Program-made: the position numbers and the translations under genes
Notes under the pieces: generated by a model
Told to the model about the DNA's origin: nothing
The model's input: the letters and a program-made list of their open reading frames with translations, nothing else
Database searches by the model: none
Part shown: piece by piece, positions 1 to 28,981 of the stretch
Layout: each line of letters opens with the position of its first letter
Position numbering within the stretch: the first letter of the stretch is position 1
IMG/VR virus record: IMGVR_UViG_2654587686_000018
Span: 1-31,892 of that record
From: a virus
Lineage: Duplodnaviria > Heunggongvirae > Uroviricota > Caudoviricetes
Reading direction: 5' to 3' (one strand)
Length of the DNA: 31,892 nucleotides

Positions 1-492
1 AATGTATTCTAGCTTGGCGTTTGAATTATTTGATTGTTTGATTTCAAGTAATAATTCTGAAAGAACATTCTCATCTTGTGTTTTTTCGAATAAAATGTAA
101 GAGAAGAAAGAATGTTCTTTATAATAATCAACATTATTATTCTCCCTTATGAACTCAAGGAAAACATTTTTTGCTTCTTTAACTTTATTTTCTTCCAATA
201 ACGACTCTACAGGTAAAAACCAGTGAGTGTCCTTTCTTTCTTGTATATCAGTTGAAGGTGGGGTATCTAAATTTCCTGTTTCGTCTAGGTTATCATCATT
301 CGATATGGATTGATTTTCATCAGTTTCAAAAGTGAGCGGGCCCGCATTCATTTTTAATTTTTTTGCAGAGATTAATTTATTAATGAGTGATTTTAATTGC
401 TTATGATAAACTACTGCGATGACAATACAAAGAATTGGCCATAGAGAAAATTTTAATGCCGTGTCTATGAGTGAGTACATTTCAGGTGTCAT
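1..492 (-). CDS. hypothetical membrane-anchored protein, 5' part only (ORF runs off the window start); AT-rich accessory gene
   Basis: My own translation of the minus strand from the ATG at 490-492: MTPEMYSLIDTALKFSLWPILCIVIAVVYHKQL..., open to position 1. One N-terminal hydrophobic helix. Very AT-rich compared with the neighbouring phage genes. Same strand as CI and 14 bp downstream of its stop. Absent from the ORF track because it has no stop inside the window. Confidence 0.5.
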   Translation of the reverse strand, partial: MTPEMYSLIDTALKFSLWPILCIVIAVVYHKQLKSLINKLISAKKLKMNAGPLTFETDENQSISNDDNLDETGNLDTPPSTDIQERKDTHWFLPVESLLEENKVKEAKNVFLEFIRENNNVDYYKEHSFFSYILFEKTQDENVLSELLLEIKQSNNSNAKLEYI

Positions 493-506
493 ACCCTACG
501 TCCTGT

Positions 507-1064
507 TTAGATGAATGATTTTTTTATGTTCGCTTTGAAATTCAGATCTTTTATAGGGCAGTCAAAGGAAATATCATCCTTAGTCACCCTAACTGAGTTA
601 TTAGGTATACGCGATACATTTCTTATACTAAATTTTTCATCAATACTCAGAAGCCACTTGCCATCGGTAATATCTTCAAAAAATGAATCAGCAATGAATA
701 TGTTGTTATTTTCTTCGATAACAATGGGGCTGACAATATTTTTAGGTAGTATTGTTTTATCAAAAAAAACAGTTCCGGCATCATATAGATTTCCATCAAC
801 TATTTTTTGCTTATGCAATCTTAGAATGTCCTGCCTTTCTATATCAAAAACAGGACCATTACCGTTAACTAGCCAGGTCAGTGATGCTCCTGTTTGTAAA
901 GCGCATGTAATTACCCAATCTGATGGGAAAATATCTCTCATGTATCTAGTGGCAAGGGTGCTTTTCGATACACCCAAGTGATCGGCTAGCGCCTGCCGTG
1001 TGGTGAAACCATATGCTTCAACCAATCTCTCGATAACTTTTCGCCCACCACTGTTGAAATCCAT
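507..1064 (-). CDS. prophage repressor, coliphage 186 CI-like
   Basis: 185 aa with an N-terminal helix-turn-helix (AYGFTTRQALADHLGVSKSTLATRYMRD) and a pattern I recall from 186 CI. Good SD (aagggga) before the ATG at 1062-1064. Divergent from the rightward early operon. Confidence 0.7.
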   Translation of the reverse strand: MDFNSGGRKVIERLVEAYGFTTRQALADHLGVSKSTLATRYMRDIFPSDWVITCALQTGASLTWLVNGNGPVFDIERQDILRLHKQKIVDGNLYDAGTVFFDKTILPKNIVSPIVIEENNNIFIADSFFEDITDGKWLLSIDEKFSIRNVSRIPNNSVRVTKDDISFDCPIKDLNFKANIKKSFI

Positions 1065-4182: not shown

Positions 4183-4391
4183 TGGCGGAAATAATCACCG
4201 GCATTTATGCCTTGTTTGCCTGTATCACTTTCGTTTTTCTCTTATGGGACGAATGCAAGGATGAATTTGATCACGATGCTGAGGACTTAGGGTTAATCAC
4301 TCTGAGTGCGGTTTTCTGGCTACCGCTGGTAGCAGCCGTACTTGTGGCCTTCCTGATTGATTTCTGGCGGCAGTGGGTTAACCGTGGATGA
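4179..4391 (+). CDS. small hypothetical membrane protein (70 aa, two hydrophobic helices)
   Basis: ORF overlapping the methyltransferase stop; two hydrophobic stretches. Confidence 0.45.
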   Translation: MMAEIITGIYALFACITFVFLLWDECKDEFDHDAEDLGLITLSAVFWLPLVAAVLVAFLIDFWRQWVNRG

Positions 4392-4392
4392 T

Positions 4393-6408
4393 ATGCTGGA
4401 GCCTGGCCAACACCACGTCGTCAATGCCTGGCGGCGTGAAACCTTTGCGCCTGGCACTCCTTCAGATGCAACGATCACAGAACGCCGTTTGTGGGCTGTA
4501 AACCCACTGGATTATGAATGGCGTTCCCAGTACCTGCATGAAATACCCGACTGGTTAGCCGGGTATTTTGGCAACCGTTACGAAAAGCTGCTGGCTGGTC
4601 TTGACGGGCGTCGCCGTGCCAATACATTCCTGCGCAAAACTATCGGCGGGAATGTATTGCCACGTCTGCGCAAAGTGGCTGCACGTTACAAGCTGGCCGC
4701 TGATGCACTTGATCTTCCTTTCGGTAAGTCGCTGGAGCGACTGCCGTCACTTGACCGCCCGGAACTCAAAAAACTGGCTGGCCAGATATCTGGCTGGATC
4801 TCCCAGTCACTTTATGACTTCACCGATCAGTTTGTGGGCAGCACTGACGATGCCGCAGAGCTGCGCCGCCGTACGCTGGAGTCTTACGGCCATTTATGCA
4901 CGTGCTCCCTGATGCTGAACAATCAACCGCCGTACTGGGCTGAACATGAAGCCAATGGCGGACAACTGGAAACGCGTAAGGCTGAATCCGGGATTCTTCG
5001 CATGATGGCACCTGAATGGTGGTATCTGCGTCTTAAGCGGGCGCGTGATATGCAGCGTGAGCATATGGCCATTGCCGTAGGGCAGGTACAGAAAGCCGCC
5101 AGTGCTTATGTGTCACGTAAAACCCTGGGTGAATGGATAGACCAGAAAAAGCGGAACCTTGAGTTCTTTAAAAAGTTTGACCTGCTGAATGATGAAGGGC
5201 TGCGTATTGCACTGGACAGTATGGTGCACCGCAGCGTTGCTAATCCGGCGATCCGTCGCTGTGAGCTAATGGTAAGAATGAGAGGGTTTGAAGATATGGC
5301 CAATGAAGAAGGGCTGGCCGGTGAGTTTTACACCATCACCGCGCCATCACGATTCCATGCGGTACACAGCAAAGGAGGCTTTGTTTCACAATGGGATGGC
5401 TGCACCCCGCAGGACACCCAGCGCTACTTATGTGGCGTATGGGCGAAAGCCCGCGCCGCTATTTCCCGCGCAGGTATCCATGTTTTTGGTTTTCGTGTGG
5501 TAGAGCCTCACCACGATGGGACACCGCACTGGCATATGCTGCTTTTTATGCGTCCTGGTGACGTGGATACCGTGCGCGATATTCTTTGCTATCAAGCCAG
5601 AATTACCGACTCCGAAGAACTGCAAACGCCAAACGCGCTAAAGGCACGTTTCCATGTTGAAGCCATCGATCCCGCTAAAGGTTCGGCTACAGGTTATATC
5701 GCCAAATACATATCCAAAAACATTGATGGATTTGCGCTGGATGGTGAGCAGGATGATGAAACAGGGGAAAATCTGCGGGATATGGCCAAATCCGTTTCTG
5801 CATGGGCTTCACGCTGGCGCATTCGCCAGTTTCAGCAGATTGGTGGTGCGCCGGTGACAGTCTGGCGTGAGCTGCGTCGGTTGCGTGATCAGGTACTGAC
5901 TGACCGCAGAATGGATGCGGTTCTGGCTGCTGCGGATGTTGGGGACTGGGCTGCATACACCCAGGCACAGGGTGGCGCACTGGTTGCCCGCCGTGATCTG
6001 GTTGTTCGTCTGGCTTATGAAATTACAGAGCAGGGCAATGAATATGCAGAGGACGTGCAGCGCGTTCAGGGTGTCTATTCTCCATTGGTTCCAGATTCAG
6101 CGGTATGTACGCGTCTGGTGAAGTGGCAGAAGGTCGCGAAGTTGGCCGAAGCGCCAGCGGAGGCGGGTTTTTCTGGCGGCAACGCCGCCCCTTGGAGTTC
6201 TGTCAATAACTGTACGGAGGGTGGAACCCGCAGACGGTTAAAACTGGAATTGCGAAGCCGGGGTTTTGAAGGTTCTGACGATGAAATAGCCATTCTCATG
6301 CGGGGTAGTGGTTTGAGATTTGGCCAGGCGGCGTTGATTTACCGTAATGGCAGGTTACAGGAGACACGAAACGAGCCAATGCACGAGCTGTGGCCGGGGT
6401 GGTTGTAG
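4393..6408 (+). CDS. replication initiation endonuclease (P2 gpA / 186 RepA-like rolling-circle initiator)
   Basis: HUH-type motif HHDGTPHWHMLLF and catalytic tyrosine motif GYIAKYISKN. Track ORF begins at TTG 4357; the in-frame ATG at 4393 directly follows the upstream stop and is preferred. Confidence 0.85.
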   Translation: MLEPGQHHVVNAWRRETFAPGTPSDATITERRLWAVNPLDYEWRSQYLHEIPDWLAGYFGNRYEKLLAGLDGRRRANTFLRKTIGGNVLPRLRKVAARYKLAADALDLPFGKSLERLPSLDRPELKKLAGQISGWISQSLYDFTDQFVGSTDDAAELRRRTLESYGHLCTCSLMLNNQPPYWAEHEANGGQLETRKAESGILRMMAPEWWYLRLKRARDMQREHMAIAVGQVQKAASAYVSRKTLGEWIDQKKRNLEFFKKFDLLNDEGLRIALDSMVHRSVANPAIRRCELMVRMRGFEDMANEEGLAGEFYTITAPSRFHAVHSKGGFVSQWDGCTPQDTQRYLCGVWAKARAAISRAGIHVFGFRVVEPHHDGTPHWHMLLFMRPGDVDTVRDILCYQARITDSEELQTPNALKARFHVEAIDPAKGSATGYIAKYISKNIDGFALDGEQDDETGENLRDMAKSVSAWASRWRIRQFQQIGGAPVTVWRELRRLRDQVLTDRRMDAVLAAADVGDWAAYTQAQGGALVARRDLVVRLAYEITEQGNEYAEDVQRVQGVYSPLVPDSAVCTRLVKWQKVAKLAEAPAEAGFSGGNAAPWSSVNNCTEGGTRRRLKLELRSRGFEGSDDEIAILMRGSGLRFGQAALIYRNGRLQETRNEPMHELWPGWL

Positions 6409-6486
6409 CCTCGTAAGTCTGTGATACATCACTGTTTGTCAACGAATAGCAGCAAAAATCACTTTCACATTTTGTGCTTAAATGTA

Positions 6487-6506
6487 TACTGTATGAATAT
6501 ACAGTT
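6487..6506. promoter_or_regulatory. LexA (SOS) box
   Basis: TACTGTATGAATATACAGTT is a CTGT-N8-ACAG palindrome close to the E. coli LexA consensus. It overlaps a -10-like TATACT at 6485-6490. Confidence 0.7.
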
Positions 6507-6523
6507 ATTCTGTTTTTAGGAGG

Positions 6524-6742
6524 ATGCTTGTGCAGGATTTGTTTATGGAAACTATCGCATTGCAGCGGATTGCGTTGTTTACCAGGTTGATCGCCAAAAG
6601 TAATTGCACTGGCTGTGAAAAGGACATTGCACTTGCCTGGCTAAGCGAGCTGACTTCAGATCTGGAAAGTAAACTTGATGAATATGAAAGTAAAAACCCC
6701 CGGGAAGGGGGCTTATCAGGCGGCGGGAGTCGCTTTCAGTAG
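6524..6742 (+). CDS. small SOS-regulated protein, candidate Tum-like antirepressor (start ATG 6524 or GTG 6530)
   Basis: ORF immediately downstream of the LexA box with a strong SD AGGAGG at 6518-6523. Function inferred from position and regulation, not sequence identity. Confidence 0.4.
   Translation: MLVQDLFMETIALQRIALFTRLIAKSNCTGCEKDIALAWLSELTSDLESKLDEYESKNPREGGLSGGGSRFQ
6692..6711 (-). terminator. putative intrinsic terminator for the Ogr-like gene
   Basis: CCCCC/GGGGG stem with 5-nt loop at 6697-6711 and an A-run at 6692-6696 (U-run on the minus transcript), 5 nt past the stop at 6716. Confidence 0.4.
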
Positions 6743-6985
6743 GTCTAATGCCATTTGACGCTGATCGGGTGACAGTGCATTCAATATTTTCTGCACCATT
6801 GCATCACCCGTTTTCGCGCTGGGGCTGAGAGTGTGGGAGAACGTCAGATTCATCACAAACGTATGGCCACACTCCACATCTGAACAGGCGCAGTAAATAT
6901 CCGCAATCTGCCGGTGCTTCCGGTTTGTTTTACGAATAACAGCCTTTGAGCCGCATTCCGGGCATTCGATTTTCAGAACTCGCAT
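6716..6985 (-). CDS. Ogr/Delta-family zinc-finger late gene activator
   Basis: CPEC...CACSDVEC cysteine pattern (CxxC-N22-CxCxxxxC) as in P2 Ogr. Start placed at MRVLKIECPEC (ATG 6983-6985) with GGAG SD; the track ORF extends to 7039. Confidence 0.7.
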   Translation of the reverse strand: MRVLKIECPECGSKAVIRKTNRKHRQIADIYCACSDVECGHTFVMNLTFSHTLSPSAKTGDAMVQKILNALSPDQRQMALDLLKATPAA

Positions 6986-7035
6986 ATTCCATGCTCCAGC
7001 TGTTAAATGATGCCTGGATTTTAGCCTTTTTCGCC

Positions 7036-8097
7036 TCATGCCGCATCCTTATCCGTTGATTCTGTGTAACTTAAATCAAAGTGAAGGTGCAGACGTTCCG
7101 GTATTTCGGGATCGTTGTTCACGGCAGTCATAAACCGACGCTGAATAGGCGCTATCTCGCTTTTCTTGTAAATCCTTTCCGCCTTTTCAACATCCCCCAG
7201 GCCAGCTGTGTTCTGCGGAACAATTCCGGCCAGCCCTGCCGGAAAGCGGTGTGCGTTGAGAATGTCCTGTGCGCTGATGTTTTTGATGTTGGCAAATTCA
7301 TCTTTTGCAGAGATATCCCCCATTTCAATAAACTTGATCGCATCCCCATCCCCGCCTGGAATGTTCACCAGAATAGTGGAGAAGTTGCCGATACCTTTGC
7401 TGTCACGCAGCTGCTGTTCAATTTCTTCTTCCATTTCATCCGTCATACTGGGATCGCGCGTGTAGAGAATGCCGCCAGTATGGGCGCCGTTGTGGTAGTA
7501 ACGGCGGCGAAAAATCACGGCTTCGCTGTTAAGCAATGCAGAATGTACACCGCCGATATAGTCGGGCAGCCCGTAAATATGCTGTTGCGGGTCGTACATC
7601 TTGATAAAAATGATATCTTCCTGTGGCCATACCTGCGGTTCCCCGTCCTGCAATACCACATAATCGCCGGGCTGGTCTGTGGCGTTGTCCCTGACTTTAC
7701 GGCGGCGAATATACAGGCCGGGTAAAGGTTCCAGGGCAATCACATCCCCCCATCCGTTGCGGATTTTGCCAATCGCAATATCCCCGAAGGTTGTATAGTC
7801 AAACGCTGCGGCTTCCAGTTGGTCGTAAGTCAGGCCACCGCCCAGATAATCAGACACAATCATATTTTTCCGGGCGTGGATGATGCCGCCATGCTGACCG
7901 TTCAGATTGATAAGCTGTGCCAGTGCCAGCCGGTCAATCGGCTGGGTGAAGTGATCGGCGGCATTGTCGTACCAGATGTCGCGGTAATCCGTGCCGGTGG
8001 TCAGGACGGGTTCCGGTTTGCCGAATGTGATGATGCTCATTTTTTTGGACTTATCGCCGCGCGGGTTGCGCTTAACGAAGCGTTTTTTTTTACTCAT
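7036..8097 (-). CDS. portal protein (P2 gpQ-like)
   Basis: 353 aa; segments YGLPDYIGGVHSALLNSEAVIFRRRYYHNGAHTGG and DISAKDEFANIKNISAQDILNAHRFP resemble P2 Q. Stop overlaps the terminase gene. Confidence 0.9.
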   Translation of the reverse strand: MSKKKRFVKRNPRGDKSKKMSIITFGKPEPVLTTGTDYRDIWYDNAADHFTQPIDRLALAQLINLNGQHGGIIHARKNMIVSDYLGGGLTYDQLEAAAFDYTTFGDIAIGKIRNGWGDVIALEPLPGLYIRRRKVRDNATDQPGDYVVLQDGEPQVWPQEDIIFIKMYDPQQHIYGLPDYIGGVHSALLNSEAVIFRRRYYHNGAHTGGILYTRDPSMTDEMEEEIEQQLRDSKGIGNFSTILVNIPGGDGDAIKFIEMGDISAKDEFANIKNISAQDILNAHRFPAGLAGIVPQNTAGLGDVEKAERIYKKSEIAPIQRRFMTAVNNDPEIPERLHLHFDLSYTESTDKDAA

Positions 8098-11921: not shown

Positions 11922-12623
11922 ATGGCACTTTCTCCCGCGCAGCGTCACAGCCAGCGTATTGCGATGGAACAAAAGCTGAAACGCAGCCAGGCACTGGAAA
12001 CCACGGAAAGCATGCACTTGCTGATTAAGGCGCTGGAAACGGATGTGGAACATGCCCGTAACCTGCCAACAATCGCGGATCGCGTTGAGTTTAAACGGGA
12101 TGTGTTGCTGCCGCGCTGGACACCGACTGTGGAAGCGTATCTGGAAAGCGGGCAGGTGTACGCCAACCCGGTATTTGCCTGGTGTGTTATCTGGCTGTTT
12201 GACGTGGGCGATCTGGATAAGGCGCTGGACTGGGCTGACATTGCAATCAGCCAGCAGCAGGCAACCCCGGATCGGTTGCGCAGTAATTTTCCCACGTTCG
12301 TGGCCGATACGATGCTGGCCTGGGCGCAGGAAACATCCGGGCGCGGGGAAAGTGTTGAGCCGTATTTTTCCCGCACATTTGAGCGTGTCGCCAGTACCTG
12401 GCGGCTGCATGAACAGGTCACGGCCAAGTGGTTCAAGTTTGCCGGGCTGGAGCTGCTGCGCGGCGAAGATGGCCAGACAACGGCTGCGGGCGTGGACGAC
12501 ATTGAAACGCTGGAGAAAGCCGATCAACTGCTGGCCACCGCAGAAAAATACTATTTAAAAATCGGCGTCAGAACGGCACGGCAGACGATTGCCGCCCGTA
12601 TCCGAAAACTGACGCAGGGGTAA
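11922..12623 (+). CDS. terminase small (endonuclease) subunit (P2 gpM-like)
   Basis: 233 aa; N-terminus MALSPAQRHSQRIAMEQ resembles gpM; position after the capsid gene. Confidence 0.8.
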   Translation: MALSPAQRHSQRIAMEQKLKRSQALETTESMHLLIKALETDVEHARNLPTIADRVEFKRDVLLPRWTPTVEAYLESGQVYANPVFAWCVIWLFDVGDLDKALDWADIAISQQQATPDRLRSNFPTFVADTMLAWAQETSGRGESVEPYFSRTFERVASTWRLHEQVTAKWFKFAGLELLRGEDGQTTAAGVDDIETLEKADQLLATAEKYYLKIGVRTARQTIAARIRKLTQG

Positions 12624-24250: not shown

Positions 24251-24965
24251 AGCGCGTCTGGCTTTCACAGACTCACTGGCCGCGCTGAATTGTTCCGTTG
24301 TTCCGGCGCATCCGTGGATAAACGGTCTGGGGCAACAGACGGATAACGGGGCATACCTCAGCCCGGTGAATGCCGTCCGCTATTTTGCTGAAAGGCTGGC
24401 CGGAACGGGCGGGAATGCCGATGTGATGATCATGATGGTGACAGGCCAGACGCATGAGAATTTTATGACCCGTCTCAACGGTCTGGTCGATGTTTTTCCG
24501 GCACCGGCATTCACGCAGGTCAAGCGCCTGGCACAATCCGCAGCGACGCTGGCCATCGAAAAAATGCAGATCCCCGCTAAAACCGGGGCGGGGTTGCCGG
24601 TGGCCATTCCGCTGTCTGTGCCAACCAGCAGGGTGGCATTATCTGCGGCGGCTGTCAGCCAGGCACAAAAAGCGGCCAGTGCGGGATTCAGCCTGGACGG
24701 ACTAAAGCAGCAACTGGGCGAGTTCGCGCAGCTGCGTGACAGCCTGATCAGTGATGTGGCCAGCGGGCTGAATGATTTGCAGGGGAAAAGTGCCAGAGCA
24801 TGGGTGTTTACCAGCACCGGCGATACAGCCACCACGCTGCTGGAACTGGTAAAGGATATCCCGCAACCGTCAGCCGTCTATACAGCGGCGGTGATGCTGG
24901 TCGGTGACAATCTGGATGGAATAAAGGGAATGATTCATGACTTCGATCCCAACGCTGGCGCTTAA
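24240..24965 (+). CDS. hypothetical tail/baseplate-associated protein
   Basis: In-frame ATG at 24240 overlapping the upstream stop; 241 aa, alanine-rich; function not recognised. Confidence 0.45.
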   Translation: MWREARLAFTDSLAALNCSVVPAHPWINGLGQQTDNGAYLSPVNAVRYFAERLAGTGGNADVMIMMVTGQTHENFMTRLNGLVDVFPAPAFTQVKRLAQSAATLAIEKMQIPAKTGAGLPVAIPLSVPTSRVALSAAAVSQAQKAASAGFSLDGLKQQLGEFAQLRDSLISDVASGLNDLQGKSARAWVFTSTGDTATTLLELVKDIPQPSAVYTAAVMLVGDNLDGIKGMIHDFDPNAGA

Positions 24966-25482
24966 TGGTGAGGCTATCCAGCTGAAAAATATGCGCGTGA
25001 CCGTCTCGCAGCAGTTTCAGGATAAAGACCAGTCCGGCCAGACAAGTGCCACAACCAAATCAGAACAGGGGGCAAAAGGGAAAGAGCTGCGTATCAGTGG
25101 CGAAATTCCGTTTAAAAGCCCGGAGATCCTGAAGCGTATTTTCGAACTGGCCAGCGCCACGGATGCCGGAGGCAACCGCCAGAAATACCGCGTGGCGCAT
25201 GAAGTGGCCAGAGCCGTGAATTTTCGTGAGGCGACATTCAGCGGAATGCTTGATGCCCCGCAGCAGGACGGGAAAATGGCCTGGCTGGTCACGTTTACGC
25301 TGGCAGAACATATCAGCGTGCAGGAAAAGCGGGAAGCCAGGGCAACAGGCAAAACGTCTGCCAAAAAACAGACGGCCGGTAATGCGGGACAATCCGGTGG
25401 CCAGAGTGCCGGGGAAGATGAAGAAAAACTGACGTGGTTTGAAAAACGGGTACTGAAACCCGTCAATGATGCTTTGGGTTAA
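24937..25482 (+). CDS. hypothetical tail-associated protein
   Basis: 181 aa, start overlaps the previous gene, SD (aaaggga) upstream. Confidence 0.45.
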   Translation: MTSIPTLALNGEAIQLKNMRVTVSQQFQDKDQSGQTSATTKSEQGAKGKELRISGEIPFKSPEILKRIFELASATDAGGNRQKYRVAHEVARAVNFREATFSGMLDAPQQDGKMAWLVTFTLAEHISVQEKREARATGKTSAKKQTAGNAGQSGGQSAGEDEEKLTWFEKRVLKPVNDALG

Positions 25483-27185
25483 TGATGAAACCAGTTAAAC
25501 GCCTGTACCTTTCAACGGATGAAGTTCACCTGGCGGATGCCAGCCTGGTGCTGGAGCTGAACAGCTGCGGCCGGGGATTTATCACTGTACAGACAGCCAC
25601 GGATTACACCGGGAAACTGGTGCGGCTGGATGTGGGGTATTCCGATCTGCTTTTGCGCTGGTTTACTGGTTATGTGGAACGCTCACAACCCGCCGAAAAC
25701 GGTTTTCAGCGTCTGTTTGTGCGCGAGCTGGTCGGCGTGTTTGAAAGGATGTGGCCATGTTCATTTCAGCACCCCACTTTGCGCAAGGTAGCCAGCTGGC
25801 TGGAGGAAAACAGCGGAATTGCTGTCAGTGTGCCGGATGCCCCTTACAGCGATAAACCGATCCCCCATTTCACCCACAACGGCACAGGCTATCAGTTGCT
25901 GAATAATCTGGGCAGGGCGTTCAGTATCCCGGATTACATCTGGTACCAGCTGCCGGATGGTTCCCTGCATGTGGGCGGCGCGGAAAAAGCGATGTTTGCC
26001 GGTCGCCCGGTCGATATCCCGGCAGAGTTTAGCCTGGGGGCGGCTGGCGGTAATTCCATGACGCTGCCGGTGATCCAGAGTCTGCGGCCGGGTGTGGAGC
26101 TGAACGGGGAGCGTGTGACCAAAGTTCATCTGACCAATGACACAATGGCTGTTACCTGGACACCCAGAAACCGTGCAACAGGTCAGCCATTACAGAAAAC
26201 ACCTGCACAGCGCCAGATTGAAAGCAATTACCCGGAACTGGCTTCCGGGCTGCATCTGCCAAAACTGGCCAGAGTGGTGGCACCCAGCGAGGCTGTGAAA
26301 AGTGGTAATTTTGCCGATCCGTTCCGGCCGCGCTATGCCGTTGATGTGCAGCTGCTTGATGCAGACGGCAACCCGGACAACCAGACACCGGTTTATTCTG
26401 CGGTGCCGCTGCCGGTACCTATGGCCGGGAATGACTCTGGCATGTTCCAGTTCCCGCCAGAAGGGACGCTGGTTGAAGTGGCGTTTACCGGAGGTCGCCC
26501 GGATAAACCGTTTATCAGGCAGACGTTGCCAGATGGTACCAGTCTGCCGGATGTTAAACCCGGCGAGCAGCTGCAACAGCAACGGGCGGAAGTGTCGCAA
26601 CGTGTTACCCAGGCTGGCGATTGGGTACGGCAGACCGATCAGACCATCAGCGAAACATCGATGGCGCGGACGGTTAAAGCCGATACGGAACAGCGTGATT
26701 TGGTCAGCCGTGAAACCACGGTTAAAGCCACCGACAAAACCACGGTTCTGGGTACCGCCACCCTGTTGGCCGGTGCCATCCAGCAGGTCAGCGCCGGGGA
26801 TTTTAGCCAGGCCGTGAAGGGCAACAGACTGGCCAGCATTGAAGGCAATGACGAAACCGATATTTCCGGGAAACAGTCCACTAAGGTGGCCGGAGCCGTG
26901 GATGTTGATGTGGGGGGAACCCTGACTGAAAAGATTGCTGCATTACGTAAATCGGTGGCGGCGGGCGGTCAGCAGATTATGGGACCAACCGTCCATATTG
27001 GCAGTGAGAGCGTCAACACGCTGACTATGATGCTGGACACTATTGATTTACTGGCCGAGCTGGCGCAGCAGTGTGCGAGCCATTCACACCCCAGTGTTGG
27101 TACGCCAACCAATGCCGGGGCATTCACACAGACGGCGGAGAAGGCCGGACAGACCCGAAGTAAGTACCAGAAAATAATCGCCTGA
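25482..27185 (+). CDS. baseplate central spike protein (gpV / gp5 / VgrG-like OB fold) with C-terminal extension
   Basis: FPPEGTLVEVAFTGGRPDKPFI matches the spike OB-fold motif (FxPxxGxxVxVxFxxGxxDxPxI). C-terminal HSHP is reminiscent of the HxH tip of P2 gpV. Confidence 0.5.
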   Translation: MMKPVKRLYLSTDEVHLADASLVLELNSCGRGFITVQTATDYTGKLVRLDVGYSDLLLRWFTGYVERSQPAENGFQRLFVRELVGVFERMWPCSFQHPTLRKVASWLEENSGIAVSVPDAPYSDKPIPHFTHNGTGYQLLNNLGRAFSIPDYIWYQLPDGSLHVGGAEKAMFAGRPVDIPAEFSLGAAGGNSMTLPVIQSLRPGVELNGERVTKVHLTNDTMAVTWTPRNRATGQPLQKTPAQRQIESNYPELASGLHLPKLARVVAPSEAVKSGNFADPFRPRYAVDVQLLDADGNPDNQTPVYSAVPLPVPMAGNDSGMFQFPPEGTLVEVAFTGGRPDKPFIRQTLPDGTSLPDVKPGEQLQQQRAEVSQRVTQAGDWVRQTDQTISETSMARTVKADTEQRDLVSRETTVKATDKTTVLGTATLLAGAIQQVSAGDFSQAVKGNRLASIEGNDETDISGKQSTKVAGAVDVDVGGTLTEKIAALRKSVAAGGQQIMGPTVHIGSESVNTLTMMLDTIDLLAELAQQCASHSHPSVGTPTNAGAFTQTAEKAGQTRSKYQKIIA

Positions 27186-27290: not shown

Positions 27291-27623
27291 ATGAAAAATT
27301 TCATTATGTTAGCTGTAGGCGCAGCAGTTTCATTCAATGTGTTAGCCGCTGAAGTTTTTACTGTGCCAACGGATACGAAGGCTAGCTATACGGTCTTAGA
27401 GAAGACGCGTACCGGTGATATGGCTACGATAACAACCAAGAGAGAGGGACCATCTGGAGTGTCATATTCTAAGCGCTTGTACGACTGTACGGCCTCGACG
27501 GTCAAGTATCTTGGAAGCGGTGACACTATAGAGCAAATGAATGGCTCAGCACCAGATCCAAATATGGCACCTATAATTGACCGTTCAATTGCATACTATG
27601 TTGGTCAGAAAGCCTGCCGATAA
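27291..27623 (+). CDS. moron: small secreted/periplasmic protein of unknown function (110 aa)
   Basis: Signal-peptide-like N-terminus MKNFIMLAVGAAVSFNVLA-AEV. Two cysteines in the mature part. AT-richer than the tail genes. Bracketed by two terminators. Confidence 0.6.
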   Translation: MKNFIMLAVGAAVSFNVLAAEVFTVPTDTKASYTVLEKTRTGDMATITTKREGPSGVSYSKRLYDCTASTVKYLGSGDTIEQMNGSAPDPNMAPIIDRSIAYYVGQKACR

Positions 27624-27665
27624 CCATAGCTTCATATCAGTTGATATAAATTGAGTATTCCGCTA

Positions 27666-27688
27666 ACCCGCATAATGCGGGTTTTTTT
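27666..27688 (+). terminator. intrinsic terminator after the moron
   Basis: ACCCGC-ATAAT-GCGGGT hairpin followed by TTTTTTT. Confidence 0.7.
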
Positions 27689-28191
27689 GTGCCTGTTAAC
27701 AGGCGGCACAGAACGCACACTGTACGCATTGCAATGCTCAGATACCACACGAGACACATCAATAGGATCAAGTGCACAGCGAAGCACTGACGGCTCTACA
27801 TGCTGACAAAAGAAATACTTCACAGACAAAAACGGCACTACACCGCACCCGCCTGCGGTTTCTGGATCGATAAAATTTTTCAGTTTTCTTTTCCTACAAA
27901 CCAGACCGCCGGACAGCGCCAGTTCTGGCTGATTGCGGGAAATCTCCAACTGAAAAAATTGAAAGGAATTTCAGTGATTTTCAGTAAAAAGGATCTCTCA
28001 AGAAATTGAAGGATTGTGTAAGTTACAGATAAATAATGGAAAAAATAATTTTAGATGATTGCTTGGATGCTAATAGCGCAGGGAATTATTTATAACGAAT
28101 AGCCCGCAGTGTTAAGCTGGGGGCGGGCTAGAGTATGCATGTTGGCATTTTACCTGCTGAAAAAATGAAGAATCTAACGTCGTAAATAAAA

Positions 28192-28554
28192 TTACTCTGT
28201 TTTAGGGCAGACTATTCCTTCTTGTCTCATTTTGGCTATAAAACCAACCCCATCCCCTGTAAGGTGACTTCCATCATCTTCCAGGATACCGTCATCTCTG
28301 CCGGCACTGAGTGGAGCGCTATAAATTTCCTTATGGAACAACAGGCAAGCTCTCCCAACACCTTGCTTTTTGCATTTATCAAGGCCTAAATTCGTAATGT
28401 GATACAGTACATAAGGTGGATGTGGAAGCTCAACCTCTCTAAACACAATGCTACCAACGGCCTTGCCATCAAGACGAACTTCAATTTCAAGGCCTGAGTG
28501 ATTAACTAGTTGATACTCAACACCTCTTTTTGATTCGAAAATAGAAGTTTCCAT
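28192..28554 (-). CDS. hypothetical protein, possibly a minimal GNAT-like fold (second gene of an AT-rich cassette)
   Basis: 120-aa ORF with SD GGGAG about 9 nt upstream. Segment KKQGVGRACLL resembles the acetyl-CoA-binding motif A (Q/R-x-x-G-x-G/A) of GNAT enzymes, but the protein is short for that fold. Confidence 0.5.
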   Translation of the reverse strand: METSIFESKRGVEYQLVNHSGLEIEVRLDGKAVGSIVFREVELPHPPYVLYHITNLGLDKCKKQGVGRACLLFHKEIYSAPLSAGRDDGILEDDGSHLTGDGVGFIAKMRQEGIVCPKTE

Positions 28555-28582
28555 ATCTTTTCTCCCTATATGTAAGATAAAT

Positions 28583-28981
28583 TTATTTCTCTTCGCACTC
28601 CTGCTTAGTTTTGTTATTGATAGATATTGCTGCGCATTTGTCTAGTAATAACATGCACTTATCAATATCATCTGCTTTTCTGAGTTTTACTCGTGTTACA
28701 CCTTGGTTGTTGTCAAGTGTGGAACATATCATTTCAATTTCTATGTCATTTCGATTGAATAATCCCATAATAGTTTTAGCTACCTCTCTGCTTTTTTCTA
28801 CAATATCAAACACTAAGGATAGCTTATCTGGTGCTTTTTCAGAAAAACAAAGCACTTTGCTCAGAGGCAAATTATTATGAGAAAAGTGTCCTTTGACTTC
28901 CTCTAGAAGTTCTTGGGAGGTGTAGATGGTGATTCCTGCGAATTGTCCTAGGTGGAGAGCATTTTGTCTTGTTCTGGTCAT
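28583..28981 (-). CDS. hypothetical protein (first gene of an AT-rich two-gene cassette)
   Basis: 132-aa ORF with SD AAGGA about 7 nt upstream; 28-bp gap to the downstream gene; no family recognised. Confidence 0.5.
   Translation of the reverse strand: MTRTRQNALHLGQFAGITIYTSQELLEEVKGHFSHNNLPLSKVLCFSEKAPDKLSLVFDIVEKSREVAKTIMGLFNRNDIEIEMICSTLDNNQGVTRVKLRKADDIDKCMLLLDKCAAISINNKTKQECEEK

What the first reader, a model, noticed from the sequence alone, without database searches (positions are those of the whole stretch)
6409..6742. Near-consensus LexA box upstream of a small ORF: candidate SOS-inducible antirepressor
TACTGTATGAATATACAGTT at 6487-6506 is a CTGT-N8-ACAG palindrome overlapping a -10-like TATACT. 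It is followed by a strong AGGAGG and a 65-72 codon ORF. In 186 the LexA-repressed tum gene sits in the equivalent place, after the replication gene, and encodes the antirepressor that inactivates CI. The protein here is shorter than 186 Tum and I do not recognise its sequence, so it may be a distinct small antirepressor.
Basis: partly seen in the sequence, partly recalled or inferred. Interest (0 to 1): 0.6.

Follow-up and report, generated by a model that had tools for sequence, protein, structure and literature searches.

The report
LexA-controlled short Tum antirepressor gene
This is the DNA-damage switch of a 186-type prophage: a LexA-repressed promoter drives a 70-residue protein homologous to the antirepressor half of phage 186 Tum, a known kind of system that databases still label "hypothetical protein".

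Summary
TACTGTATGAATATACAGTT (6487-6506) is the only LexA box in the window. It matches 17 of 20 consensus positions and occurred in 0 of 100 shuffles. It overlaps a -10-like element and precedes AGGAGG and a small ORF. The eight CTGT/ACAG core bases are invariant in 32 distinct relatives whose flanks have diverged. Relatives place the start at GTG 6530, giving 70 aa. Codons 2-55 are under strong purifying selection (dN/dS 0.03-0.07).

The protein is not a new kind of antirepressor. It is homologous to the N-terminal, antirepressor half of 186 Tum (profile-profile probability 96%, E 1e-9, with a Yersinia phage protein bridging the two). It is 49% identical to the 62-aa tum of E. coli HS prophage DuoHS, whose deletion abolishes mitomycin C induction. 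The promoter layout matches 186 p95, and the resident CI is 186-type with no autocleavage domain.

Three differences from the known examples:
- There is no DinI domain or dinI/tumB gene and no orf97, so the SOS unit is one gene.
- The gene converges on an ogr-like gene and contains that gene's terminator.
- One Tum type occurs with at least seven CI types, which suggests broad specificity.

Verdict: a new member of a known kind, of modest interest. Function is inferred, not shown.

The parts
6464..6469 (+). -35-like hexamer TTCACA of the p95-like SOS promoter
   Evidence: It is the same hexamer as the annotated -35 of 186 p95. It is moderately conserved (TTTCACA) in 32 distinct relatives. The consensus promoter scan did not call it.
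6485..6492 (+). -10-like region: TATACT at 6485-6490 and TACTGT at 6487-6492, overlapped by the LexA box
   Evidence: In 186 the annotated -10 of p95 is TACTGT, the first six bases of the LexA box. The layout here is the same, with a 17-nt spacer.
6487..6506 (.). LexA (SOS) box TACTGTATGAATATACAGTT
   Evidence: It is the only such box in the window. It matches 17 of 20 consensus positions, reached by 0 of 100 shuffles. It matches 17 of 20 positions of the 186 p95 box TACTGTATGTTTATACAGTA. The CTGT and ACAG cores are invariant (2.0 bits each) in 32 unique relatives, while the 45 nt upstream average 0.82 bits.
6518..6523 (+). Shine-Dalgarno sequence AGGAGG
   Evidence: It lies 6 nt upstream of GTG 6530. 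A GGAGG or GGGAGG is conserved at this spacing in relatives.
6530..6742 (+). tumA-like gene encoding a 70-aa stand-alone Tum antirepressor domain (GTG start). The core helical hairpin is codons 1-55 (6530-6694) and the tail is disordered.
   Evidence: Family hits: phrog_698 at E 1.8e-17 and phrog_8554 at E 1.3e-7. The N-terminal 70 aa of 186 Tum hits the same families. Profile-profile comparison with the 186/PSP3 TumA group gives probability 96.4% and E 1.1e-9. Identity to E. coli HS tum ECHS_RS04495 is 49%, E 3e-18. dN/dS is 0.03-0.07. AlphaFold2 predicts helices 2-23 and 28-55 with pLDDT about 90 in the core.
6694..6714 (-). Intrinsic terminator of the convergent ogr-like gene, embedded in the 3' part of the tumA-like ORF
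   Evidence: The scan finds an 8-bp stem, 5 of them GC, followed by TTTTT on the minus strand. The minus strand folds at -12.9 kcal/mol. On the plus strand the hairpin has no T tail. The same hairpin is present in Cronobacter phage ESSI-2.
6716..7039 (-). Ogr/Delta-like zinc-finger late-gene activator, convergent with the tumA-like ORF and overlapping its last 27 nt
   Evidence: Pfam Ogr_Delta at E 9e-20. The order A, then tum, then convergent ogr and portal is conserved in all loci of this subfamily.
507..1064 (-). 186-type CI immunity repressor, the presumed target of the antirepressor
   Evidence: Pfam finds Phage_CI_repr plus Phage_CI_C and no S24 peptidase domain. The protein is 31% identical to 186 CI and 48% identical to DuoHS CI.

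Best explanation
Positions 6464-6742 are the SOS-induction module of a 186-type (Peduoviridae) prophage.

Proposed mechanism:
1. In the lysogen, host LexA binds the box at 6487-6506. The box overlaps the -10 of a p95-like promoter, so the promoter stays shut.
2. DNA damage activates RecA and LexA cleaves itself.
3. The promoter fires and a 70-aa two-helix protein is made from GTG 6530.
4. That protein corresponds to the N-terminal antirepressor half of 186 Tum (PSP3 TumA, E. coli HS DuoHS Tum). It binds the resident 186-type CI, which cannot cleave itself, and keeps it off its operators.
5. The early lytic promoter is thereby freed and the prophage enters lytic growth.

Shown here: the box, its invariance in relatives, the promoter layout shared with 186, the homology, purifying selection on the ORF, and the absence of any DinI partner.

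Inferred: LexA binding, antirepression, and CI as the target.
For: LexA box:
- It is unique in the window, matches 17 of 20 consensus positions, and was reached by 0 of 100 shuffles.
- Its core is invariant in 32 unique relatives with diverged flanks, and it ends 20-25 nt before the start codon in all of them.

Promoter: the -35, spacer and box layout matches the annotated SOS-dependent p95 of 186.

Homology:
- The ORF hits phrog_698 and phrog_8554, and 186 Tum residues 1-70 hit the same families.
- hhalign of the ORF family against 186 Tum alone gives E 1.3e-4. Against a 186/ENT90/YenM/PSP3 TumA alignment it gives probability 96.4% and E 1.1e-9 over 60 columns.
- A Yersinia phage vB_YenM_324 ORF bridges the two: E 3e-14 to the window ORF and E 2e-13 to 186 Tum.

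Experimental anchor:
- The ORF is 49% identical (E 3e-18) to ECHS_RS04495.
- That gene is the one deleted as 'tum' in E. coli HS. The deletion, like lexA(Ind-), abolishes mitomycin C induction of prophage DuoHS (PMC12055606).
- Lemire et al. 2011 report that in PSP3 the upstream half carries the antirepressor activity (PMC3121763).

Context: the resident CI is 186-type with no S24 domain. The gene sits right after gene A, as tum does.

The ORF is a real gene: dN/dS is 0.03-0.07 at dS 0.55-0.76.
Against: - There is no experiment on this protein or its subfamily. Identity to the nearest tested protein is only 49% over 53 residues, and direct BLASTP against 186 Tum finds nothing.
- The consensus sigma-70 scan calls no promoter here.
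- The same Tum type occurs with CI proteins only 30-46% identical to each other. This is unexpected for a specific binding partner. It means either broad specificity or that some of these pairings do not work.
- No plus-strand terminator follows the ORF, so the transcript's 3' end and its stability are unknown.
Confidence: 0.8

Rival explanations
1. The gene is SOS-induced, but the product is not the antirepressor of the resident CI. It might instead modulate the host SOS response, inhibit host functions during induction, or act only in trans on other prophages.
For: Tum type and CI type are nearly uncorrelated across 36 unique combinations (Mantel r 0.12). The window's Tum type is found with 7 CI types. 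No interaction has been tested. The AlphaFold2 model is a generic helical hairpin with no informative structural neighbour.
Against: The protein is homologous to the half of Tum that carries antirepressor activity, not to the DinI half. The closest tested relative is required for induction. Nothing else in the window carries a LexA box, and CI has no autocleavage domain. Without this gene the phage would have no route to SOS induction, yet the gene is under strong purifying selection.
Confidence: 0.1
2. The ORF is a decaying remnant of a full-length tum that lost its DinI half and no longer functions. The LexA box is a leftover.
For: The protein is half the size of 186 Tum. No DinI or orf97 homologue is present anywhere in the window. 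The 3' end of the ORF is built from a terminator and the end of another gene.
Against: dN/dS is 0.03-0.07. The start codon, Shine-Dalgarno sequence and LexA box are conserved in 40 distinct haplotypes. Stand-alone short Tum genes are the functional form in PSP3 and DuoHS. The exact protein is seen on hundreds of contigs from Citrobacter, Salmonella and E. coli.
Confidence: 0.04
3. The palindrome is a chance match or binds another factor, and the ORF is expressed independently of LexA.
For: The loose CTGT-N8-ACAG pattern alone appears in 30 of 100 shuffles. The scan called no canonical promoter.
Against: The 17/20 consensus match was reached by 0 of 100 shuffles. The eight core bases are invariant while flanks diverge. 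A box sits at the same place in 186, PSP3, Fels-2, SopEPhi, DuoHS, ENT90 and the Yersinia phages.
Confidence: 0.03

Closest known systems
Tum of coliphage 186 (146 aa, promoter p95; Shearwin, Brumby and Egan 1998, cited in PMC3121763 and PMC7708051)
   Same: The gene lies immediately after replication gene A. The promoter uses TTCACA as its -35 and has a LexA box that starts at the -10. The N-terminal roughly 45-60 residues are homologous. The partner is a 186-type CI.
   Different: The C-terminal DinI-like domain (Pfam DinI at Tum 87-145) is absent. There are no nested internal-start products, no orf97 downstream and no t95 terminators. Direct pairwise identity is too low for BLASTP.
TumA of phage PSP3, and the 62-aa Tum of Fels-2 (STM2728), SopEPhi (orf10) and E. 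coli HS DuoHS (ECHS_RS04495)
   Same: All are stand-alone proteins of about 60 aa behind a LexA box after gene A. Identity to the Fels-2/DuoHS type is 45-49% over residues 1-53. DuoHS tum is required for mitomycin C induction.
   Different: In those phages a dinI-like gene (tumB) follows within about 10 nt, then further genes. Here nothing follows except a convergent ogr-like gene. This subfamily has a 15-residue Gly-rich tail ending in FQ, encoded by the ogr terminator and the end of ogr. The Fels-2 type lacks that tail.
Unannotated 70-aa ORF of Yersinia phage vB_YenM_324, and the 60-aa 'tum protein' of vB_YenM_06.16-2
   Same: vB_YenM_324 has the same arrangement: A, LexA box, short ORF, then convergent ogr and portal. 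Its ORF has the same Gly-rich tail and aligns with the window ORF over its full length at E 3e-14.
   Different: Its sequence is closer to 186 Tum (44% identity) than to the window ORF (34%). It is useful mainly as the bridge that establishes homology.
LexA-controlled antirepressors of other phage groups (Gifsy GfoA/GftA, Fels-1 FsoA, N15 AntC; PMC3121763)
   Same: The logic is the same: a LexA-repressed small protein inactivates a non-cleavable repressor. In the Gifsy phages the antirepressors also act on repressors of co-resident prophages.
   Different: No sequence relationship was found. Pfam, NCBIfam and PADLOC give no hit to any antirepressor family. In the Gifsy phages dinI comes before the antirepressor gene.

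Membership tests
Tum/TumA antirepressors of 186-type Peduoviridae | Sequence homology to the N-terminal (antirepressor) half of 186 Tum / PSP3 TumA | tested here: met
   PHROG families are shared between the ORF and Tum 1-70. hhalign gives E 1.3e-4 against Tum alone and probability 96.4%, E 1.1e-9 against a TumA alignment. A bridging protein matches both at E 3e-14 and E 2e-13. Identity to DuoHS/Fels-2 Tum is 49%. Direct BLASTP against 186 Tum was negative.
Tum/TumA antirepressors of 186-type Peduoviridae | A LexA box overlapping the promoter directly upstream | tested here: met
   The box is at 6487-6506 and matches 17 of 20 consensus positions. The layout is the same as 186 p95. The box is invariant in 32 unique relatives. 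LexA binding itself was not tested.
Tum/TumA antirepressors of 186-type Peduoviridae | Location at the end of the early region, immediately downstream of replication gene A | tested here: met
   Gene A occupies 4357-6408 and the ORF starts at 6530. The order is the same in 186, PSP3, Fels-2, SopEPhi, DuoHS and all 46 related loci.
Tum/TumA antirepressors of 186-type Peduoviridae | The resident immunity repressor is 186-type CI, which lacks RecA-stimulated autocleavage | tested here: met
   The CI at 507-1064 has PF07022 plus PF16452 and no S24 peptidase hit.
Tum/TumA antirepressors of 186-type Peduoviridae | Binds CI and blocks operator binding; required for SOS induction | not testable with these tools
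   Known only by analogy to 186 Tum (PMC3121763, PMC7708051) and the DuoHS tum deletion (PMC12055606).
Full-length 186 Tum architecture, or a tumA-tumB operon | A DinI-like C-terminal domain or an adjacent dinI-like gene (tumB) | tested here: not met
   tblastn with 186 Tum, PSP3 TumB and Fels-2 DinI finds nothing in the 31.9-kb window (best E 0.8). None of the 46 subfamily loci has a hit.
Gammaproteobacterial SOS regulon operator | A CTGT-N8-ACAG palindrome with an AT-rich centre, placed over a promoter | tested here: met
Other antirepressor families (P22/P1 Ant, Bro-N/KilA-type, Gifsy GfoA type) | A match to the family's profile | tested here: not met
   Pfam gives only two sub-threshold unrelated hits. 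NCBIfam gives none. PADLOC gives none.

The most novel reading that the evidence does not exclude
This TumA subfamily may be a broad-spectrum antirepressor. Its gene travels with the A/ogr/portal module and not with the immunity module. One Tum type (at least 85% identical in the core) is found with seven CI types that are less than 80% identical to each other, some only 30-46% identical. Individual CI types are found with up to three Tum types. If all these prophages are SOS-inducible, the 70-aa hairpin must recognise a surface conserved across heteroimmune 186-type CIs. The N-terminal HTH domain is the likelier site, since it is more conserved (median pairwise identity 55%, against 34% for the C-terminal domain). 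One prophage's Tum could then induce heteroimmune 186-type neighbours in polylysogens. Immunity specificity and induction would be evolutionarily uncoupled.
Probability: 0.45. Interest if true: 0.45.

Novelty: new member of a known kind. Interest (0 to 1): 0.28.

Why it matters
The practical value is in annotation. This protein and its relatives are labelled "hypothetical protein" or "unknown function" on well over a thousand Salmonella, Citrobacter and E. coli contigs and in PHROGs. Yet they are very probably the switch that makes these P2/186-like prophages inducible by DNA-damaging antibiotics.

The locus also shows a minimal form of the 186 SOS operon, with the antirepressor domain alone and no DinI or orf97. 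That says the DinI half is dispensable for this lineage.

The lack of co-variation between Tum and CI gives a testable lead on how a 70-residue hairpin recognises repressors of different immunity, and on cross-induction between co-resident prophages.

Tried and rejected
- Direct BLASTP of the ORF against 186 Tum found no alignment. Homology needed profiles and a bridging sequence.
- Pfam, NCBIfam and PADLOC gave no family for the ORF.
- A PDB sequence search with the family profile gave only chance-level hits.
- Foldseek of the AlphaFold2 model against the PDB gave only generic helical hairpins, all with E above 1.
- Rfam at a permissive threshold found nothing credible in 6200-7200, so a known RNA element was rejected.
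- The sigma-70 consensus scan found no promoter. The promoter assignment therefore rests on homology with 186 p95.
- The scan of species-representative genomes returned only 2 loci. IMG/VR gave 44.
- The 1.8-billion-protein profile search found 85 representative clusters, nearly all 45-100 aa, and no Tum-DinI fusion above threshold.
- One literature query (tumA/PSP3) returned only noise. Bunny et al. 2002 (PMC151935) is not held.
- I first took the window to be E. coli EcPF15, because the 381-nt query is 100% identical to it. That is wrong. In EcPF15 the CI and A proteins are 97% identical to the window's, and the terminase small-subunit gene is annotated as truncated and appears to be followed directly by the homologues of the window's baseplate genes at 24937-27185. 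In the window that terminase gene is intact.
- No heterology index was computed for the box, because I do not hold the published matrix.

Full report
**What is there**

The window is a P2/186-like (Peduoviridae) prophage. Reading left to right it carries:
- a 186-type CI repressor at 507-1064 on the minus strand (Pfam Phage_CI_repr plus Phage_CI_C, with no peptidase domain);
- an Apl-like ORF;
- CII (CP76) at 1447-1965;
- fil, several small ORFs and a Dam methylase;
- replication gene A at 4357-6408;
- the region of the finding;
- a convergent Ogr/Delta-like gene at 6716-7039 on the minus strand;
- portal, terminase and the late genes.

The right end of the window reaches the host genes ybjL and ybjM. 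That is the same chromosomal neighbourhood where E. coli HS carries its P2-like prophage DuoHS.

The 381 nt around the finding are 100% identical to a prophage in E. coli EcPF15. The window is nevertheless a different, complete relative. In EcPF15 the CI and A proteins are 97% identical to the window's, and the terminase small-subunit gene is annotated as truncated, with what appear to be the window's baseplate-gene homologues directly after it. In the window that gene is intact. The nearest named phages are Escherichia phages ESSI2_ev040, ev015 and ev129 (genus Quadragintavirus), at 87% DNA identity.

**Checking the observation**

TACTGTATGAATATACAGTT lies at 6487-6506. It is the only CTGT-N8-ACAG site in 31.9 kb. 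The loose pattern is not significant on its own, since 30 of 100 shuffles have at least one. The 17/20 match to the 20-mer consensus was never reached in 100 shuffles.

The consensus promoter scan calls nothing here. TTCACA (6464-6469) followed after 17 nt by TACTGT reproduces what the phage 186 record annotates as the SOS-dependent promoter p95: TTCACA, 18 nt, TACTGT, with the LexA box TACTGTATGTTTATACAGTA starting at the -10.

**Evolutionary test of the operator and the ORF**

I collected 46 related loci from IMG/VR and from reference genomes, plus reference phages. All 40 distinct haplotypes of upstream region plus ORF carry a CTGT-N8-ACAG box. Among the 32 unique promoter segments of this subfamily, the box ends 20-25 nt before the start codon.

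In those 32 segments, anchored on the box, the eight core positions are invariant at 2.0 bits each. The 45 nt upstream average 0.82 bits.

The codon at 6530 is GTG in most relatives and ATG in two. It follows a GGAGG by 6-7 nt. ATG 6524 exists only in the closest relatives and abuts the Shine-Dalgarno sequence. ATG 6545, the RefSeq start, lies 21 nt from it. The product is therefore most likely 70 aa.

Over codons 2-55, dN/dS against close relatives is 0.03-0.07 at dS 0.55-0.76. The median is 0.17 over 86 pairs. The ORF is a real, constrained gene.

**What the protein is**

Pfam, NCBIfam and PADLOC are silent. PHROGs places the protein in phrog_698 (E 1.8e-17) and phrog_8554 (E 1.3e-7), both labelled "unknown function".

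Residues 1-70 of 186 Tum hit the same two families (E 5.9e-6 and 3.4e-12). Residues 87-145 of Tum are the Pfam DinI domain.

Direct BLASTP of the ORF against Tum fails, but three other comparisons establish homology:
- A profile of the ORF family aligns its residues 5-43 to Tum 5-43, at E 1.3e-4.
- Against an alignment of 186, ENT90, two Yersinia phages and PSP3 TumA, the result is probability 96.4% and E 1.1e-9 over 60 columns.
- An unannotated 70-aa ORF of Yersinia phage vB_YenM_324 bridges the two groups. It matches the window ORF over its full length, tail included, at E 3e-14. It matches Tum 1-61 at E 2e-13.

The conserved signature is E7, R13, L20, C26, A34 and E40. AlphaFold2 predicts a two-helix hairpin, with helices 2-23 and 28-55 and pLDDT about 90 in the core. 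The tail, residues 59-70, is disordered. Structure searches give only generic hairpins.

**Link to experiments**

Lemire et al. 2011 make three relevant points (PMC3121763):
- 186 Tum looks like a fusion of an antirepressor and DinI.
- Fels-2 and PSP3 have tum split into two genes.
- In PSP3 the upstream gene carries the antirepressor activity.

The PSP3 record names these genes tumA (60 aa, "UV induction of prophage") and tumB (DinI).

The window ORF is 45-49% identical over residues 1-53 to the Fels-2, SopEPhi and E. coli HS version of tumA.

In E. coli HS, the gene deleted as "tum" in the Phollow study is ECHS_RS04495 (PMC12055606, supplementary file 3). That is this 62-aa ORF. It sits right after gene A, behind the box TACTGTAAATATAAACAGTG, and is followed by a DinI-like gene. 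The tum deletion and lexA(Ind-) each abolish mitomycin C-induced lysis and virion formation.

In 186 itself, Tum is described as sequestering CI after LexA-controlled p95 is derepressed (PMC7708051).

**Most likely mechanism**

LexA occludes the p95-like promoter. After DNA damage, LexA self-cleavage derepresses it. The 70-aa TumA-type protein accumulates and titrates the non-cleavable 186-type CI off its operators, which starts lytic development.

The operator, the homology and the selection are shown here. LexA binding, CI binding and induction are inferred. I put this at about 0.8.

**How it differs from the known examples**

1. There is no DinI domain, no tumB and no orf97 anywhere in the window or in any of the 46 subfamily loci. 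The SOS operon is reduced to a single gene.
2. The gene converges on an ogr-like late activator.
   - The last 27 nt overlap the end of ogr, and the ogr terminator (6694-6714, minus strand) lies inside the ORF.
   - As a result the Gly-rich tail (PREGGLSGGGSRFQ) is encoded by the hairpin and by the end of ogr.
   - On the plus strand that hairpin has no T tract, so the SOS transcript probably reads antisense into ogr. The only plus-strand terminator-like site is at 6910-6924.
3. Tum and CI do not co-vary.
   - Among 36 unique Tum-CI combinations, the Mantel correlation of identities is 0.12.
   - Pairs with at least 95% identical Tum have CI identities of 30-100%, with a median of 46%.
   - The window's Tum type occurs with seven CI types, and single CI types occur with up to three Tum types.
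   - Tum travels with the A/ogr/portal module.
   - The N-terminal domain of CI is more conserved than the C-terminal domain, with median pairwise identities of 55% and 34%.
   - This pattern suggests a broad-specificity antirepressor, as is known for the unrelated Gifsy antirepressors. It has not been tested.

**Rivals**

- An SOS-induced protein with a different role, about 0.1.
- A decaying remnant, about 0.04. Purifying selection and the conserved expression signals argue against it.
- A chance or non-LexA palindrome, about 0.03. Invariance of the core across relatives and its presence upstream of every Tum and TumA gene examined argue against it.

**Novelty and verdict**

This is a new member of a known kind, a stand-alone TumA-type antirepressor under LexA control. 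Only the idea that the protein is unrelated to Tum is wrong.

Public databases name every member "hypothetical protein". The exact 65-aa and 72-aa forms occur on 762 and 393 contigs in Citrobacter, Salmonella and E. coli, and the Salmonella cluster has members on 1000 or more contigs each. The family comprises about 85 clusters at 50% identity. The result therefore closes an annotation gap and does not uncover new biology.

Interest is modest at about 0.28. The uncoupling of Tum from CI is the one lead worth an experiment.

Noticed in passing
window 6694-6742 and 6910-6924: The tumA-like ORF and the ogr-like gene converge and overlap by 27 nt. The ogr terminator hairpin lies inside the ORF and has no T tail on the plus strand. 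An SOS-induced transcript would therefore run antisense into ogr and possibly portal, unless it stops at a weak terminator-like site at 6910-6924. Transcriptional interference with the late activator is possible.
   Followed up: partly
window 6716-7039 (-): In this lineage the Ogr/Delta-like late activator sits between tum and the portal gene. In DuoHS the ogr-like gene is at the far end of the prophage, after the tail genes. The ORF is 107 aa, longer than the 72-aa profile of the NCBIfam family it partially matched. The ESSI2_ev040 record annotates a shorter CDS (270 nt, about 90 aa), so the start codon is uncertain.
   Followed up: no
window 1-492 (-); full gene in L001 527-2113: A 528-aa tetratricopeptide-repeat protein (phrog_31809, unknown function, no PADLOC hit) is inserted between int and cI. 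186 has nothing there. It could be a moron or defence cargo.
   Followed up: partly
L001 13543-16057, compared with window 11922-12623 and 24937-27185: In the E. coli EcPF15 copy of this prophage, the terminase small-subunit gene is annotated as truncated. It is followed by two ORFs whose lengths match the window's HP1_ORF34-like baseplate gene and the next gene. About 12 kb of late genes therefore appear to be deleted there, while the LexA box and tumA-like gene are retained at 100% identity.
   Followed up: partly
window 27291-28981: Three small ORFs lie between the last tail/baseplate genes and the host gene ybjL: 27291-27623 (+), 28192-28554 (-) and 28583-28981 (-). None has a Pfam family. 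Two belong to PHROGs of unknown function (phrog_13843 and phrog_14142). They are likely cargo at the prophage end.
   Followed up: partly
L056 (Yersinia phage vB_YenM_324) about 389-601; L006 (Cronobacter phage ESSI-2) 1501-1725: Both phage records leave the LexA-controlled short tum ORF unannotated. In ESSI-2 the region is covered only by the convergent 'transcriptional regulator' CDS. The Fels-2/DuoHS-type homologue is named 'Levan regulatory protein' in UniRef and in some Klebsiella phage records, which looks like a propagated misannotation.
   Followed up: partly
L004 1440-1480 (Fels-2); L054 24560-24600 (E. coli HS): Just downstream of the main LexA box, the Fels-2/DuoHS-type promoters carry an extra TGTACAGTA or ATACAGTA half-site-like element. 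The window's promoter lacks it. It could be a second, degenerate operator.
   Followed up: no
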